NCBI RefSeq assembly: GCF_056712565.1 | Contig: NZ_JBWXXM010000002.1 | Direction: 5' to 3' (one strand) | DNA: 64,000 nucleotides | Source of the DNA: a plasmid | Shown here: positions 1 through 6,000 of the stretch, piece by piece | Layout: every line of letters starts with the position of its first letter | How positions within the stretch are numbered: the stretch's first letter is position 1 | Position numbers: made by a program

Positions 1-3000
1 AAGTACCGCGATCATTACTTTAGCAGAGCTATTGTTACTCAGAATCATAAAGGCGGTACAGGGAAAAGCACTACATCTGTAGCTTTAGCAGTAGCAGCTG
101 CTTTAGATCTACAACTGAATGCACGTGTATTAATGATCGAATGGGACCCACAAGGTTCGATTGGAAGCAGCATGATTCAAAGTGTCTCAGAAGATGATGT
201 CTTCCTTACAGCAATTGATGCAATCCTTGGAATTTATGAAGAAAATTCTGAGTATAAAAAATATTTAGATTCAGGATTCTCTGAAGAAGAAATCATCACT
301 AATATGCCTTTTTCAACGCATCTGCCAAACTTGGACGTGATAACGGCATTTCCGACAGATGCTCGTTTTAAAGATAAATACTGGCAATGTTCTAGAGAAG
401 AACGAACGTCTTTGTTACTACGTTTCAAGGAAGTTATCTTACCGGTACTGAAGCAGAACTATGATTTGATTATTATAGACACTCCACCTGAAGATTCACC
501 TTTGATCTGGGCTGCTGACGAAGCGGCCGATGGGATTCTTGTCGCAGTGTCACCACGTGAATATGATTACGCCTCTACTACAGACTTCATGCTTACAATA
601 AGTGAAAGGTTTAAACAATCACCAAGTAAGGGCGATAATTTAAAATGGTTCAAAGTTCTTGCTGTCAATGTTGATGACAAAAGTCCATATGAAAGAATAG
701 TTTTGGATAAATTAATCAGAACTGTTCAGGACCTTTTGATGTCCGCTAACATAAAAAATTCTGAAGCATTTAAGGCAGCTGCTTCCAAAGGGCGTACAGT
801 GCTTGATATCAAAAAATCAGAGGAACTTTGTTCCGCAAAGCAACTTGATGTCGCAGAAGAATCTGTATTACAGGTATATCAACAATTTATAAATGAAATA
901 AAAAGTTTTTCAGCTAAGCAAGGAGTTAACGCATGAGCGATGAGCAACATATCGGGAATGATAAATCTCGATATTTAAACGCACCAAAGCGGACAGAAGT
1001 CGGTCACCGTTCAGGTCTTGCGGGTTTGAAAACAGCACCTCGCATAAAAAAGTTATTCACTCTTCATAAGGGCCGAAGACTTGAAGCGGAACATGTGATT
1101 GTTCCAGCCCAGAGAGTGGAGAAGGAGACCTTAGTCCATCCAGCAAACCCACGAAATCAAGAAGCCCTTACAGATTATTCTGTTAGAGATATTCTTAAGC
1201 AGATTGAAGAAAGAGGGGTCGATACCGAAGGGATCGCTGTAAAAAGAGATGGGGTTTATTTATTAATAGAAGGAAGTCGCAGACGTTTCTGCTGTATAAA
1301 GGCAGAAAAGGATCTCCCCCTGTGGGTACTACCGGATGAACTAACCGAAGATGATATAAATTCAATTATATCCGCAGCACAAACATCTCGAAAATTTTCA
1401 TATAGAGAAGTTGGGTTTCAATTTATCAAGAAAATGGAAGAAAAGGGATTTTCTACTAATGAAGAACTCGCAGCATATCTTGGGATTAGTCATGTATCGG
1501 TAGCCAAAAGAATCCAGGCGGCACGTATTGACGAAACATTGATCTCTTTATTCCCGGATTATGAAGGAATACCGAACTCCTATTATAGTCGCTTGTCTCG
1601 TTTACAGAAATATGTGCAAAAAAATCTATTTCCTTTAGATGAAGTAATAGATAATGTTAAAGAGGAAACAAAAGATTTAGACATTGGAGATCTCCAAGTT
1701 GCCCAAAAAGTTGTAATGGAGAAAATCACACAATCTGTGGAAAGTGTTTGTGAAAAATCTTATTCCACAAAATGGGAAACAAGTGATCTTATTACTTTTG
1801 ATAACAAAGATAAGTATGCAAGAATCAGTAAAAACAATACTGGAAGAAAAATTCGCATTGAATTCAATAGGATAAGTGCGGGTTTTATTAAGGAGCTAGA
1901 GGAGTTCATAAAAGAAAAATTAAAAGTATCAGAATAAATATTGAACTGCATCTTTATGATGCAGTTCATATGATTTATATTTTTAATTTCTTGTTATATT
2001 AATATGGGGTGTGCGCAGGTTCAGACATATAAGGTCTTAGTTCTATATGAACAGAAGCGCCATTCCCATCATTTACTACGTTTAAAGGTGCTTTGCCCGG
2101 CAATGACATAGTTGCAACGTCAGGTCCAGAAACAGCAAAATTATTTTCTGCTGAAGGCATTACTGTAAAAATCTTTATAGCAACATTTTCATGTCTAAAT
2201 AAAGAAATCCCAAAAGTAGAACCAGCTTCGGTATTGCTCACGTCCACAACCACAGGGGTTTTTCCTAGATATTCATTAGTTAGTATGTTTTTTACTAATG
2301 CCCCTTCCGGGACAGTATAGATACGGTATGGATATGCTAAAACTGAGTGACAAAAACATAATAAAATAACAATTAATGTTTTTTTCATAGATTATCCTCA
2401 TTCAAAAATAAAAGATATAACTCTTGAAAATCGTGGTTATTAATTAGGTCCGCTTTTCCGGGAAAATCGTAACTAACAGAAAATAAAAGAGAAAGAGAAT
2501 CTTTTCCTTTTGCTTTGGGAGAGATTCTGCTAAAAGCACGGTTAATAAACATAAGTTGATCTTCATTGTTGAAGCAAAGTCCAAGCATTCCAACCGTAGG
2601 AACTACGAATGTGCTTACGCTGCCTGGGGGCAAAAGTTGCTTACTACGGGCATTGTAAGCACAACGACTACCACCTAGCGTTAGGCCTGAAAGCTCAATA
2701 AAACTTCTGGTTCCATTCTTGGCGACAAGCCAAACATCAGTTCCTGAACTTTCGACACGTAAAGTAACTTTTCCGTCAGTAAAGGCCTCACTTTTATTGT
2801 ATAGAATAGGGTCAAAACCAACTGTCGGGAGTTCTTCGATTTTACTTTCTACTGACTGACAACCAGTCAGTAATGCAAACAATAAAAGTGTGATAACTTT
2901 AATCATCCCGCTTCCTTAGATTGTTTTTGGCGCTGGTTATAAAAGATAATGATTCACCGGGGTAGAGAATTGTTTCTTTCGTCCAATAACGATAACCACC

Positions 3001-6000
3001 GAGGATATCTTTTCTTTTCTCAATATAAACCGGTTCAGAAAATTCTAAATGTTGATATTTCGGAAGAGATAAGATTTTATATTTTACTTGTCCAACTAAG
3101 AGGTAATTCTTCTCTTTAGGATTGATGGTTACTGAATTACCAACACTTTGAGGTATGTTAAGTTTTTTTATATTTAGATCAGAATCGTCAGGAACGGACA
3201 CTTGATCATTAGATGTCTTTCCGGGAAGAGTAAACCCTTTACCCTGATCCGGTCCAAAGATGGCAATTACATCTTTGTTGTTTCTTGTGATCGAAACGAT
3301 AGCCTGAAGGGGCGTATTAGCAAGGTCATTTATAAACGATATAGTTATACTTGATTTAGGCTCGACCCAAATAATGCTTTTTCCGGATGTGCCTTCGCTT
3401 AATGCAATTTTTTCATTTAGTAAGATTTTATTTTTGGCAATGATATTATACTCAAGTTTCGGTATCACCATAAAAAGTGATTCTTTATTTGAAACATTCA
3501 TGATTTCTAAGAAATTGGTTTTGGTCATGCTGGTCTTTAGAACAGGCCTATATTTACCATTTATAAACCACCTTCCGTTTATAAGCTCCGCTTTAGCAGA
3601 TATAAGTGAATCACTTTTCTGAGCGGCAGAAGAAAAAGCATCTTTTCTTTGCTCTTTCTCTTGATGTGGTGCAGCTGCTGCGTGAAGATGCAAAAGTAAT
3701 GTTGAAATTGAGATAATCTTCCATTTTATCTTCATCTTGTTACCTCAATGTTGTTTTCAATCGAATCGAGTTCTAACGGATAGGTTTTAAGTGAATAAAA
3801 CTTGTTTGTTGTTTGTATTAGCTGATGACACAATAAAACTGGATTGTTCTTCATGATTATTTCTACTAATGTAAGTGCTGGTGAGTCAGTTGGCGGTATA
3901 CCCGGAGCAACTATTACCTGGTCTTCTAATTTTGACATATAGAGTGATCCAGTATTTATATGTAAACAATTACCGATCAGTACTGGAAGATTGTTTTGAG
4001 TACGACCATGGGCTTTTCGAATGCTGTTTACAGGATTCCTACCTAGGACCATAAGGTTGACGTCATTTATCATCATTGGTATTACGGCATGGTCCATACC
4101 GAATAGAAACTGGCTCTGAAAAATATTCACATTGGCATAGTTGAATGCTTGAAGCGCATTATAAGTATCAGTGAATGATGTGCGGATAGGGGCGTAATCA
4201 GAAGGGCAAACCCCAATTTTTATATCGCCTTTGAGTAAAATCTGCATCATCGTACCAAGCTGGGTATTAAGAAGTTTTTTTACCTCTTCCTCTAAATAGT
4301 AACGATTTACAGCTTTATGCCACTTTCCGCCCATTACACACCATCTCTCATTGAGGTATGTGCTGGGGTAAAATGTTCTCCGGTCTTTGTTTAATGGTAA
4401 CAATTTTTTTAACATTTCTTCTCCGGCTCCGGCAGCTGAGAAATGCCTCACAAAACGTCCATCGAAAAAGCCACTGTTTATCGCCTTCATCAACTCTATG
4501 GGTTCCGGCCCATAGTCAAACAAATTTCCAGTAGAGAAAATTACTATCTCTTCTTCTGGCTTTGTAACTGATTGAATCAAGTTGCACAGCGCAGAGTAAT
4601 GTCCATGAGGATCTGCCAGAAAGAAAATCCTTCCCGAGAAGTTTGTAAGGTCTATAGTTTGGACGTGCTCAGCTGCCATAAATTCCTCTACGTATGTTTA
4701 CATCGATGATACGGTATTTCGAGCTATGATTTTTTTACATAAAGGCGTCATTTTGGATTCTAAGCCTAAGGACCTTTGTTACTTACTGGTAAAGGCTCCA
4801 GTCCTGGCTCTCAAACAGTTCATACTTAGGATGCAAAGTAACTTTCTGATTATAATTGGCTCCTTTATAAACATGTTTACTTCATGAATACAGGATATTT
4901 AACGGTAATGTATTTAAAATGGAAGGATGCTGAAATAACATAGAGTTACGTATTTTTTTAATAGTGTTGATGTTGATAATAGGTCACCATTAATGTATAA
5001 AGTTAATATCTAATATGGTCCTATTAATAAAAGAGAGTTTTTATGGCTGAACTATTAAAATCTGAAAGTCCTGTTTCACAATCATTGCAGGATATCACTG
5101 AAGCTTTAAAAATCGTTGTCGATGATGGAAGTAAAGCTGCAAAACTGGTTTGTCTTAATGAAAGAAACGAATTAGTTCCCTTGCTCACACAAAATAGTTT
5201 TGTTCCAGATTTCCGTGTTCGCCATGAGGGTCTCAATCCTTTTAACTATCTTATTGATGGGCTGGAAAGGTTTTCGCATCACAGCGAATCTAGTAACTCA
5301 CTGGAATCGACTGATGTATCTCACCAATACGATGAAATTAGCCGGTTAAATGTTCACCATGCACTTCATGCTTCTGGTTTAGTTCCTCAGGATGTTCACC
5401 TCTTTGTTACTTTACCTCTTAGCCAGTTCTATACTGCTTTAGGGGAAACGAATATTGAAAATATTCAGAGAAAAAAAGATAACCTGATGAAACCAGTTGA
5501 GCGTTATCTTGACGGTAAACGCTATTCTTTCAACGTTTTGTCTGTGACTGTTTTCCCTGAATCTTTACCAGCTGTGACCCGGGCAGATGAAATTGAGGAT
5601 ATTGCTTCATTTGAATCAAGTTTGGTAATTGATCTTGGTGGTACTACTCTTGATGTTGCAAGTATTACTGGGCAATTAGAACAGATTTCGAAAGTAAAAG
5701 GTTTTGACCGTATTGGTTGTTCTATTGTTTACGATGAGATCAGCAGGTATCTTGAATCTGAGAAACTGAATACGAGTAATGCTTACATTCATCATCTTGT
5801 TGATAATCGTCATGATAAATCAGCTTTGAAGGTTGCAGAGGACAAGCGTGACGGTGTTTTTGATGCGGTAAACTCTGCGGTACAGAAGTTGCAAAGTAAA
5901 GTAATCAGAGCGGTTACACAAGTCGAAGAGAGGCCTCATAATGTTTTCCTTGTTGGGGGAGGTTCATATCTCATCGAAACAGCTATTCGTAAACATTTTG

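What the first reader, a model, noticed from the sequence alone, without database searches (positions are those of the whole stretch)
1999..4679. Translationally coupled phosphoesterase plus three exported proteins between two partition loci
Four minus-strand genes overlap by 4-8 bp: a cytoplasmic calcineurin-like metallophosphoesterase followed by three signal-peptide proteins, one with a lipobox. The operon is wedged between parAB and parM/parR. A phosphoesterase co-transcribed with envelope proteins is not a standard transfer or partition component and may be a surface/exclusion or signalling module.
Basis: seen in the sequence. Interest (0 to 1): 0.55.

Follow-up and report, generated by a model that had tools for sequence, protein, structure and literature searches.

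The report
IncHI plasmid Z operon, already known
These four overlapping genes are the already-described "Z operon" of IncHI resistance plasmids (trhO, eexB, a lipoprotein gene, trhZ), which raises mating efficiency and keeps related plasmids out; the one fresh point is that its "phosphoesterase" has lost almost all catalytic residues.

Summary
Four minus-strand ORFs (3732-4679, 2899-3735, 2385-2906, 1999-2388) overlap by 4, 8 and 4 bp. They lie between parAB and parMR.

The window is IncHI2 plasmid backbone, 100% identical to many sequenced plasmids. The four genes are orthologues of R27 R0015-R0018, which are trhO, eexB, a lipoprotein gene and trhZ. This is the published Tra2 "Z operon", described as encoding the entry-exclusion system and transfer-frequency factors. 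It is activated by TrhR/TrhY and repressed by HtdA.

The same four-gene module sits in the Tra2 region of three more distant IncHI-like lineages that lack parAB. One of these also lacks parMR. The par flanking is therefore lineage-specific.

Three points appear to add to the literature:
- TrhO has a lambda-phosphatase fold but keeps only 3 of 10 canonical active-site residues. All 11 family members lack the second-metal-site residues Asp49, Asn75 and His186, 9 lack His139, and 10 lack the general acid, so it is probably a pseudo-phosphatase.
- EexB models as two cupredoxin-like domains resembling multicopper oxidases and FtsP, without copper ligands.
- EexB has the highest non-synonymous divergence of ten neighbouring genes.

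Novelty: already known. Interest is low.

The parts
4680..5042 (-). Intergenic region of 363 bp between the divergent trhO and parM starts. It is presumed to hold the Z-operon promoter and the parM promoter/centromere region.
   Evidence: The scan found no sigma-70 consensus on the minus strand here. That fits an activator-dependent promoter: in R27 the Z operon needs TrhR and TrhY (PMC7366339). Conserved blocks, and a conserved AGAGGnATTTATG ribosome site plus start, are shared with R27 and a divergent IncHI2 variant. No promoter position was determined.
3732..4679 (-). trhO: a cytoplasmic 315-aa protein with a lambda-phosphatase (calcineurin-like) fold and a degenerate active site.
   Evidence: 70% identical to R27 R0015/trhO. 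UniRef names the exact sequence 'conjugative transfer protein TrhO'. Pfam Metallophos E 6.3e-5. hhalign against canonical relatives gives probability 99.9%, E 2.5e-35. The AlphaFold2 model has pLDDT 85.5, and its best PDB match is lambda phosphatase 1G5B. Lambda D49/R53/N75/H76/H139/R162/H186 correspond to N52/Y56/A85/G86/P159/M195/R214.
2899..3735 (-). eexB orthologue: an exported 278-aa all-beta protein, the exclusion factor in R27.
2385..2906 (-). Orthologue of the R27 R0017 lipoprotein (173 aa). Function unassigned.
   Evidence: 57% identical to R27 R0017, which is labelled 'lipoprotein (Z)'. Lipobox LTGC at residues 13-16 with Gln at +2. C16, C82 and C111 are invariant in five lineages. 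No Pfam, NCBIfam, PADLOC or PHROG family matched.
1999..2388 (-). trhZ: a small exported 129-aa protein that raises transfer frequency in R27.
   Evidence: 77% identical to R27 R0018/trhZ. Sources name the exact or near-exact sequence TrhZ. Signal peptide with a VLA|YPY site. It carries a literal PEGA motif at residues 27-30, but the Pfam PEGA match is only E 0.049.
1942..1968 (.). Hairpin with T-runs on both sides: a likely bidirectional terminator shared by the convergent parB and trhZ.
   Evidence: One search reports an 11-bp stem with 5 G-C pairs and a 5-nt loop, scored on both strands. It lies between the parB stop (1937) and the trhZ stop (1999).

Best explanation
The region is the IncHI2 copy of the Tra2 'Z operon' characterised in the IncHI1 plasmid R27, in the order trhO, eexB, lipoprotein gene (R0017 homologue), trhZ. 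It is a conjugation-accessory and exclusion module, not a partition or signalling unit.

Shown here or in cited papers:
- The four genes are translationally coupled, end at a shared hairpin, and are inherited as a block in at least five IncHI-like lineages.
- In R27 they rise together 8- to 17-fold when the repressor HtdA is lost, and they need TrhR/TrhY.
- Loss of trhO or trhZ lowers transfer.
- EexB is an outer-membrane exclusion protein that is needed in both donor and recipient.

Inferred:
1. TrhO stays in the cytoplasm and acts as a non-catalytic, lambda-phosphatase-fold binding protein, because its second metal site and general acid are gone.
2. EexB, a copper-free pair of cupredoxin-like domains, is exported and acts as a surface recognition protein. 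Its fast-changing sequence would set which relatives are excluded, probably through like-with-like contact between donor and recipient copies.
3. The lipoprotein (outer-membrane type by the +2 rule) and TrhZ act with EexB in the envelope, helping mating in donors and exclusion in recipients.
For: Identity:
- The window is 100% identical over 9 kb to many IncHI2A plasmids. 1130 plasmid records match and 1074 cover at least 80% of the query.
- Gene order and sizes are the same in R478 and R27.
- Identity to R27 R0015-R0018 is 70, 40, 57 and 77%.
- The R27 gene table gives R0015 trhO (Z), R0016 eexB (Z), R0017 lipoprotein (Z) and R0018 trhZ (Z). Fold changes in the htdA mutant at 25 C are 8.25, 12.13, 17.14 and 15.99 (PMC7366339 supplement).
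- Source names TrhO and TrhZ are attached to the exact window proteins.

Function:
- trhO and trhZ increase transfer frequency (PMC11628540 citing Lawley 2003).
- EexB is in the outer membrane, and EexA/EexB are needed in donor and recipient (PMC11493245).

Module conservation without parAB: an IncHI1B-type Klebsiella plasmid and two metagenomic IncHI-like contigs.

TrhO pseudo-enzyme.

EexB fold and lack of copper ligands.

EexB is the fastest-changing protein. dN is 0.117 and 0.062, against 0.030 and 0.014 for TrhO. It is also the least conserved against R478 and R27.
Against: - No experiment exists for the IncHI2 copy itself. All functional statements are transferred from R27.
- EexB is only 40% identical to its R27 orthologue.
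- PMC7366339 speaks of 'the three genes' of the Z operon in its text but lists four in its table.
- dN/dS for eexB is below 1 (0.27 and 0.40). This shows fast change, not proven positive selection, and parR changes about as fast.
- IncHI1/HI2 TrhO keeps D23, H25 and D55 and has other invariant His residues (H121, H197, H224, H240), so a one-metal or novel active site is not excluded.
- The roles of the lipoprotein and TrhZ, and the like-with-like recognition model, are inference.
- Signal peptides were judged by rules, not by a trained predictor.
Confidence: 0.85

Rival explanations
1. TrhO is a working phosphoesterase with an unusual (for example one-metal) active site. It removes phosphate from a cytoplasmic target and so controls the envelope proteins or the transfer machinery, making the operon a true signalling module.
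For: The fold is clearly metallophosphoesterase. IncHI1/HI2 TrhO keeps the first-site residues D23 and H25, and D55. N52 could still bind a metal. Several other His residues are invariant among the close family (H121, H197, H224, H240). The R27 table calls it a 'phosphodiesterase'.
Against: All 11 family representatives have Asn instead of the bridging Asp and lack the second-site residues N75 and H186, and 9 of 11 lack H139. The general acid H76 is absent in 10 of 11. All 8 canonical relatives found in the same search keep every one of these residues. H25 itself is replaced by Y, C, Q or R in other family members. Both phosphate-binding arginines are replaced (Y56, M195).
Confidence: 0.12
2. 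The operon is an accessory part of plasmid partition, because it lies between the parAB and parMR loci.
For: Position only. The arrangement is the same in R27 and R478.
Against: In the IncHI1B-type plasmid the same four genes lie between htdA and traC with no par genes. In two other lineages only parM is adjacent and parAB is absent. In R27 the four genes respond to HtdA with the tra genes, while parA, parB and parM do not (fold changes about 1.0). Three of the four products are exported, which does not fit a role in DNA segregation.
Confidence: 0.02
3. The operon is cargo unrelated to conjugation, for example an anti-phage or envelope-stress module.
For: Three of the four proteins have no family assignment. 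TrhO's nearest phage family is the NinI-like phosphatase (PHROG 246, E 1.4e-7).
Against: No PADLOC defence model matches any of the four proteins. The module always sits inside Tra2, next to traC/trhC, in five lineages. Published transfer and exclusion phenotypes exist.
Confidence: 0.01

Closest known systems
Z operon of the Tra2 region of IncHI1 plasmid R27 (R0015 trhO, R0016 eexB, R0017 lipoprotein, R0018 trhZ)
   Same: It has the same four genes in the same order with overlapping stops and starts, divergent from parM and convergent with parB. Protein identities are 70, 40, 57 and 77%.
   Different: This is the IncHI2 allele set. EexB is strongly diverged, so its exclusion specificity may differ. 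No direct experiments exist on the IncHI2 copy.
Bacteriophage lambda Ser/Thr phosphatase (PDB 1G5B) and the related E. coli phosphatase family (NCBIfam PRK09968)
   Same: TrhO shares the fold. The profile-profile probability is 99.9%. Foldseek gives E 1.9e-13, with a TM-score of 0.70-0.72 normalised to lambda phosphatase. Motif spacing is retained.
   Different: TrhO has GNLFDYG in place of GDxxDRG, and GAGE in place of GNHE. Pro, Met and Arg occupy the positions of H139, R162 and H186. It also has about 95 extra residues, including a C-terminal beta-strand unit. It scores 23.6 bits against the 332-bit cutoff of PRK09968, so it is not a member of that equivalog.
Vps29, the retromer subunit with a metallophosphoesterase fold that I recall being used as a non-catalytic scaffold (own knowledge)
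   Same: It is an analogy for TrhO: a calcineurin-like fold with a degenerate metal site used for protein binding. Vps29 structures appear among TrhO's fold matches (E about 5e-5).
   Different: There is no specific relatedness. Vps29 is eukaryotic and has an unrelated function. Binding partners of TrhO are unknown.
Multicopper oxidases and the copper-free family member SufI/FtsP (PDB 2UXT)
   Different: EexB has two domains rather than three. The mature protein has no Cys and no conserved His, so it has no copper sites. Sequence identity is 9-15%. Pfam Cu-oxidase scores only E 0.15.
Other exclusion factors of conjugative plasmids: F TraT/TraS and IncC Sfx/Eex
   Same: They are the same kind of job: envelope proteins encoded in the transfer region that reduce entry of related plasmids. 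TraT, Sfx and EexB are outer-membrane or surface factors (PMC11493245).
   Different: No sequence or family relation was found. IncHI exclusion proteins are reported to be needed in both donor and recipient, unlike Sfx, which is needed only in the recipient and targets TraN.

Membership tests
IncHI Tra2 Z operon | Four co-oriented, overlapping genes in the order trhO, eexB, lipoprotein gene, trhZ | tested here: met
   ORFs overlap by 4, 8 and 4 bp. The order and sizes match R27 and R478.
IncHI Tra2 Z operon | Orthology of each product to R27 R0015-R0018 | tested here: met
   Global identities are 70.0, 39.9, 57.2 and 76.9%. The names TrhO and TrhZ are attached to the exact sequences.
IncHI Tra2 Z operon | Location inside Tra2, between the trhC end of the AC operon and the htdA start of the AN operon | tested here: met
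   htdA, htdF, htdK and rsp follow downstream of parMR. trhC lies upstream of parAB in R478 and R27. The position is the same in three further lineages.
IncHI Tra2 Z operon | Single transcript, activated by TrhR/TrhY and repressed by HtdA | not testable with these tools
   This is known for R27 only (PMC7366339). Here there is only indirect support: no sigma-70 consensus upstream and one terminator-like hairpin after trhZ.
IncHI Tra2 Z operon | Exclusion of incoming IncH plasmids, and reduced transfer when trhO or trhZ is lost | not testable with these tools
   These are phenotypes from R27 literature. No data exist for this IncHI2 allele.
Calcineurin-like metallophosphoesterase, lambda-phosphatase type | Alpha/beta sandwich fold of the family | tested here: met
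   Pfam PF00149 E 6.3e-5. hhalign probability 99.9%. The AlphaFold2 model has pLDDT 85.5 and its top hit is 1G5B.
Calcineurin-like metallophosphoesterase, lambda-phosphatase type | Motif I, D-x-H (lambda D20, H22) | tested here: met
   D23 and H25 are present in this protein. Within the TrhO family, however, His is replaced by Y, C, Q or R in 7 of 11 members and Asp by Asn in 2.
Calcineurin-like metallophosphoesterase, lambda-phosphatase type | Motif II, G-D-x-x-D-R (bridging Asp49, Arg53) | tested here: not met
   The sequence is GNLFDYG, with N52 and Y56. Asn is invariant in all 11 family members.
Calcineurin-like metallophosphoesterase, lambda-phosphatase type | Motif III, G-N-H-E (metal ligand Asn75, general acid His76) | tested here: not met
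   The sequence is GAGE, with A85 and G86. No family member has Asn, and only 1 of 11 has His.
Calcineurin-like metallophosphoesterase, lambda-phosphatase type | Second-site histidines (lambda His139, His186) and phosphate-binding Arg162 | tested here: not met
   The corresponding residues are P159, R214 and M195. This alignment is at low identity in this half, but MAFFT and hhalign agree.
Calcineurin-like metallophosphoesterase, lambda-phosphatase type | Metal-dependent phosphoester hydrolysis | not testable with these tools
   This needs purified protein.
Sec-exported proteins / bacterial lipoproteins | N-terminal signal peptide (positive n-region, hydrophobic core, small residues at -3/-1). 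For the lipoprotein, a lipobox [LVI][ASTVI][GAS]C. | tested here: met
   My rule-based script finds these features in EexB, the lipoprotein (LTGC at 13-16) and TrhZ, and in their R27 and IncHI1B-type orthologues. TrhO has none. No trained predictor was available. EexB's core (IISISTLLL, KD 2.5) is the weakest.
Multicopper oxidase / cupredoxin | Cupredoxin beta-sandwich domains | tested here: met
Multicopper oxidase / cupredoxin | Copper ligands (His/Cys/Met of the type-1 site and HxH motifs of the trinuclear site) | tested here: not met
   Mature EexB has no Cys and two non-conserved His residues. No His, Cys or Met is among the invariant columns.
PEGA domain (PF08308) | Significant profile match | tested here: inconclusive
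   TrhZ scores E 0.049. Only 3 of 15 family members reach E <= 0.1 and none reaches E <= 0.001. A literal P-E-G-A is present at residues 27-30.

The most novel reading that the evidence does not exclude
The Z operon would be built from two retired enzyme folds. TrhO and its whole small family (about ten clusters at 50% identity, all in IncHI-like transfer regions) would be pseudo-phosphatases that act only by binding a cytoplasmic partner of the transfer machinery. EexB would be a copper-free tandem-cupredoxin surface protein whose rapidly diverging sequence encodes like-with-like recognition between donor and recipient. I found neither point stated in the papers I could search.
Probability: 0.55. 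Interest if true: 0.35.

Novelty: already known. Interest (0 to 1): 0.15.

Why it matters
IncHI2 plasmids are major carriers of mcr, ESBL and heavy-metal resistance genes. This backbone stretch matched 1130 plasmid records. The Z operon affects how efficiently they spread and which relatives they keep out.

Recognising the region as the known Z operon prevents it from being reported as a new system. The added observations give concrete experimental handles on a poorly understood exclusion mechanism, but they refine known biology rather than open a new topic:
- TrhO is probably non-catalytic.
- EexB models as a copper-free cupredoxin pair and has the highest non-synonymous divergence of ten neighbouring genes.
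- The four genes travel as a block even where the par loci are absent.

Tried and rejected
- NCBIfam, Pfam, PADLOC and PHROGs scans of the three exported proteins gave nothing significant.
- The PEGA-domain lead for TrhZ stayed below significance, even when 15 family members were scanned.
- A sigma-70 promoter scan found no consensus site upstream of trhO on the coding strand, so I did not assign a promoter.
- Repeats in the trhO-parM spacer were short and unconvincing.
- I tried to read the primary papers (Lawley 2003 Tra2 and double-partition papers, Humbert 2019), but they are not held. Gunton 2008 did not appear in any search. Their content is therefore cited only through open papers that summarise them.
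- I could not establish from held papers which gene is eexA. From my own memory of the Gunton 2008 abstract (unverified), the operon was given as '015, eexB, 017, eexA', which would make eexA the same gene as trhZ/R0018.
- I rejected the partition-accessory reading on synteny and regulation.
- I rejected the defence-system reading.

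
Full report
**1. What is in the sequence**

One search lists four minus-strand ORFs:
- 3732-4679 (315 aa)
- 2899-3735 (278 aa)
- 2385-2906 (173 aa)
- 1999-2388 (129 aa)

Their stops and starts overlap by 4, 8 and 4 bp. Each start has a GAGG/AAGGA motif a few bases upstream. Upstream on the other strand lie ParA (cut by the window start) and ParB (933-1937). Downstream, transcribed divergently, lie ParM (5043-6080) and the ParR-position gene (6092-6730). An 11-bp-stem hairpin with T-runs on both strands sits at 1942-1968, between the convergent parB and trhZ stops. The scan finds no sigma-70 consensus on the coding strand in the 363-bp trhO-parM spacer.

**2. Where the window comes from**

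The first 9 kb is 100% identical to many IncHI2A plasmids of Salmonella, E. coli and Enterobacter. In total 1130 plasmid records match, and 1074 of them cover at least 80% of the query. RefSeq annotation of one identical plasmid calls the same four CDSs, the first as 'metallophosphoesterase' and the rest as hypothetical. They are followed by parM, htdA and rsp. R478 (IncHI2) and R27 (IncHI1) have the same arrangement.

**3. Identity of the operon**

The window proteins are 70.0, 39.9, 57.2 and 76.9% identical to the R27 products at 20184-22897. By position between parM (R0014) and parB (R0019), these are R0015-R0018.

The supplementary gene table of PMC7366339 labels them as follows:
- R0015, trhO (Z), phosphodiesterase
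- R0016, eexB (Z), exclusion protein
- R0017, lipoprotein (Z)
- R0018, trhZ (Z)

In the htdA mutant at 25 C they rise together by 8.25-, 12.13-, 17.14- and 15.99-fold, while parM, parB and parA stay at about 1.0.

[quoted passage not shown] It states that TrhR and TrhY are both needed to activate the F, H, AC and Z operons, and that HtdA counteracts them. UniRef names attached to the exact window sequences are 'IncH1 plasmid conjugative transfer protein TrhO' and '...TrhZ'.

Two further published statements bear on function:
- PMC11628540, citing Lawley et al. 2003, says trhO and trhZ raise transfer frequency.
- PMC11493245, citing Gunton et al. 2008, says EexB localises to the outer membrane. 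It also says EexA and EexB are needed in both donor and recipient for exclusion.

The primary papers are not held. I could not verify which gene is eexA. From memory only, the Gunton abstract lists the operon as '015, eexB, 017, eexA', which would make eexA equal to trhZ.

**4. The par flanking is incidental**

Three other lineages carry the same four-gene block:
- An IncHI1B-type Klebsiella plasmid has overlapping homologues at 31, 25, 35 and 44% identity. They lie directly between htdA and traC, with no par genes.
- Two metagenomic IncHI-like contigs carry the block between parM and traC, without parAB. One of them has a YdjM-family gene inserted before the last gene.

The module therefore belongs to the transfer region. 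Across lineages TrhZ is the best conserved and EexB the least. In the most distant lineage (L006) the window EexB found no match and R27 EexB aligned at 21% identity, E 5e-5.

**5. TrhO**

Homology to lambda-type phosphatases is firm:
- Pfam Metallophos gives E 6.3e-5.
- phmmer to lambda phosphatase 1G5B gives E 0.0017.
- PHROG NinI-like phosphatase gives E 1.4e-7.
- Profile-profile comparison with 26 canonical relatives gives probability 99.9%, E 2.5e-35.
- The AlphaFold2 model has pLDDT 85.5 and pTM 0.88. Its best PDB match is 1G5B, with E 1.9e-13 and a TM-score of 0.70-0.72 on the target.

The active site, however, is not there. The hhalign and MAFFT alignments agree on these correspondences between lambda phosphatase and TrhO:

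| Lambda phosphatase | TrhO |
|---|---|
| D20 | D23 |
| H22 | H25 |
| D49 | N52 |
| D52 | D55 |
| R53 | Y56 |
| N75 | A85 |
| H76 | G86 |
| H139 | P159 |
| R162 | M195 |
| H186 | R214 |

An exhaustive profile search of 1.84 billion representatives found only about ten full-length family clusters before it reached canonical phosphatases. In all 11 family representatives examined:
- the bridging Asp is replaced by Asn;
- Asn75 and His186 are absent;
- His76 is absent in 10;
- His139 is absent in 9.

All 8 canonical relatives from the same search keep every one of these residues. In the canonical set, D20, H22, D49, D52, R53, N75, H76, H139 and H186 are invariant.

From established knowledge of lambda phosphatase, the second metal site and the general acid are gone. 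I conclude that TrhO is most likely a non-catalytic derivative of the fold. Vps29, which I recall as a non-catalytic metallophosphoesterase-fold scaffold, appears among the fold matches and is a useful analogy.

A one-metal or novel site cannot be excluded. D23, H25 and D55 remain, and H121, H197, H224 and H240 are invariant among the closer relatives.

**6. EexB**

No sequence family matches. The AlphaFold2 model (18 sequences; core pLDDT above 90; residues 1-41 and 166-181 disordered) is all-beta with two domains.

- Foldseek against AFDB independently gives multicopper oxidase and FtsP-like proteins at E 1e-11 to 1e-9, ranked after EexB's own orthologues.

Mature EexB has no Cys and only two non-conserved His residues. 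No His, Cys or Met is invariant in the family. It is therefore a copper-free cupredoxin pair, suited to binding rather than catalysis.

EexB is the most divergent protein of the neighbourhood against R478 (95.0%, when the others are at least 96.9%). Against R27 it is at 39.9%, similar to parR at 41.1%. In two IncHI2 variants it has the highest dN of ten genes:

| Variant | eexB dN | eexB dN/dS | TrhO dN/dS | TrhZ dN/dS |
|---|---|---|---|---|
| L008 | 0.117 | 0.27 | 0.08 | 0.09 |
| L010 | 0.062 | 0.40 | 0.10 | 0 |

This fits a specificity determinant but does not prove positive selection.

**7. The lipoprotein and TrhZ**

The 173-aa protein has a lipobox LTGC (residues 13-16) with Gln at +2. 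By the +2 rule (own knowledge) this predicts outer-membrane sorting. It also has two further invariant Cys residues in five lineages.

TrhZ has a clear signal peptide (VLA|YPY) and a literal PEGA motif. The Pfam PEGA match is not significant: E 0.049, with 3 of 15 members at E <= 0.1.

**8. How it most likely works**

Shown: the four genes are one coupled unit in Tra2. In R27 they are co-regulated with the tra genes, support transfer and mediate exclusion.

Inferred:
- TrhO acts in the cytoplasm by binding, not hydrolysis.
- EexB, the lipoprotein and TrhZ act together in the envelope.
- EexB provides the variable recognition surface. Like-with-like contact between donor and recipient copies explains why the proteins are needed on both sides.

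Rivals:
- An active, atypical TrhO phosphoesterase that signals (about 0.12).
- A partition accessory (about 0.02).
- Unrelated cargo or defence (about 0.01; no PADLOC hits).

**9. Verdict**

However, the operon is a named, experimentally studied part of IncHI conjugation, in a window identical to hundreds of sequenced plasmids. Novelty: already known.

Three points are modest refinements that I did not see in the papers I could search: the degenerate TrhO active site, the cupredoxin-like EexB model, and the block's independence from the par loci. Interest 0.15.

Noticed in passing
L002 (R27, NC_002305) 20184-20210, compared with window 4655-4679: RefSeq starts R27 trhO 8 codons upstream (323 aa). 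The ATG and AGAGGnATTTATG ribosome site conserved with IncHI2 correspond to the 315-aa form, and most cluster members are 315 aa. The R27 start therefore looks over-extended.
   Followed up: partly
window 19712-20584 (minus strand): A 290-aa predicted lipoprotein (lipobox LSGC) is encoded against the flow of the AN operon, between trhN and trhI. It is conserved in R27 (4082-4954) and R478. It has no functional name in the annotations seen, and it is another envelope protein inside Tra2.
   Followed up: no
window 6092-6730 (parR position): The ParR-position gene diverges about as fast as eexB: 41% identity to R27, and dN 0.116 with dN/dS 0.32 in one IncHI2 variant. ParM stays at 80-96%. This suggests that centromere-binding specificity also shifts between lineages.
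   Followed up: partly
L006 10462-10962: In one distant IncHI-like contig, a YdjM-family (PF04307) gene is inserted on the opposite strand between the lipoprotein gene and the trhZ homologue. This breaks the otherwise tight four-gene block.
   Followed up: no
window 1-936: The ORF tool lists ParA as 133-936 (267 aa), but the real gene (417 aa in identical plasmids) starts upstream of the window. ParA is therefore truncated by the window edge, not by biology.
   Followed up: yes
window from about 43,900 onward, compared with NZ_AP023310.1: The window is base-for-base collinear with plasmid pSAL4578-1, with only 4 mismatches, from about window 8,610 to about 43,900. It then loses register, through an indel or rearrangement near the integrase/Hha region.
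   Followed up: no
PMC7366339, text versus supplement: The paper's text speaks of 'the three genes' of the Z operon, while its own supplementary table marks four genes (R0015-R0018) as Z. None of them is labelled eexA.
   Followed up: partly
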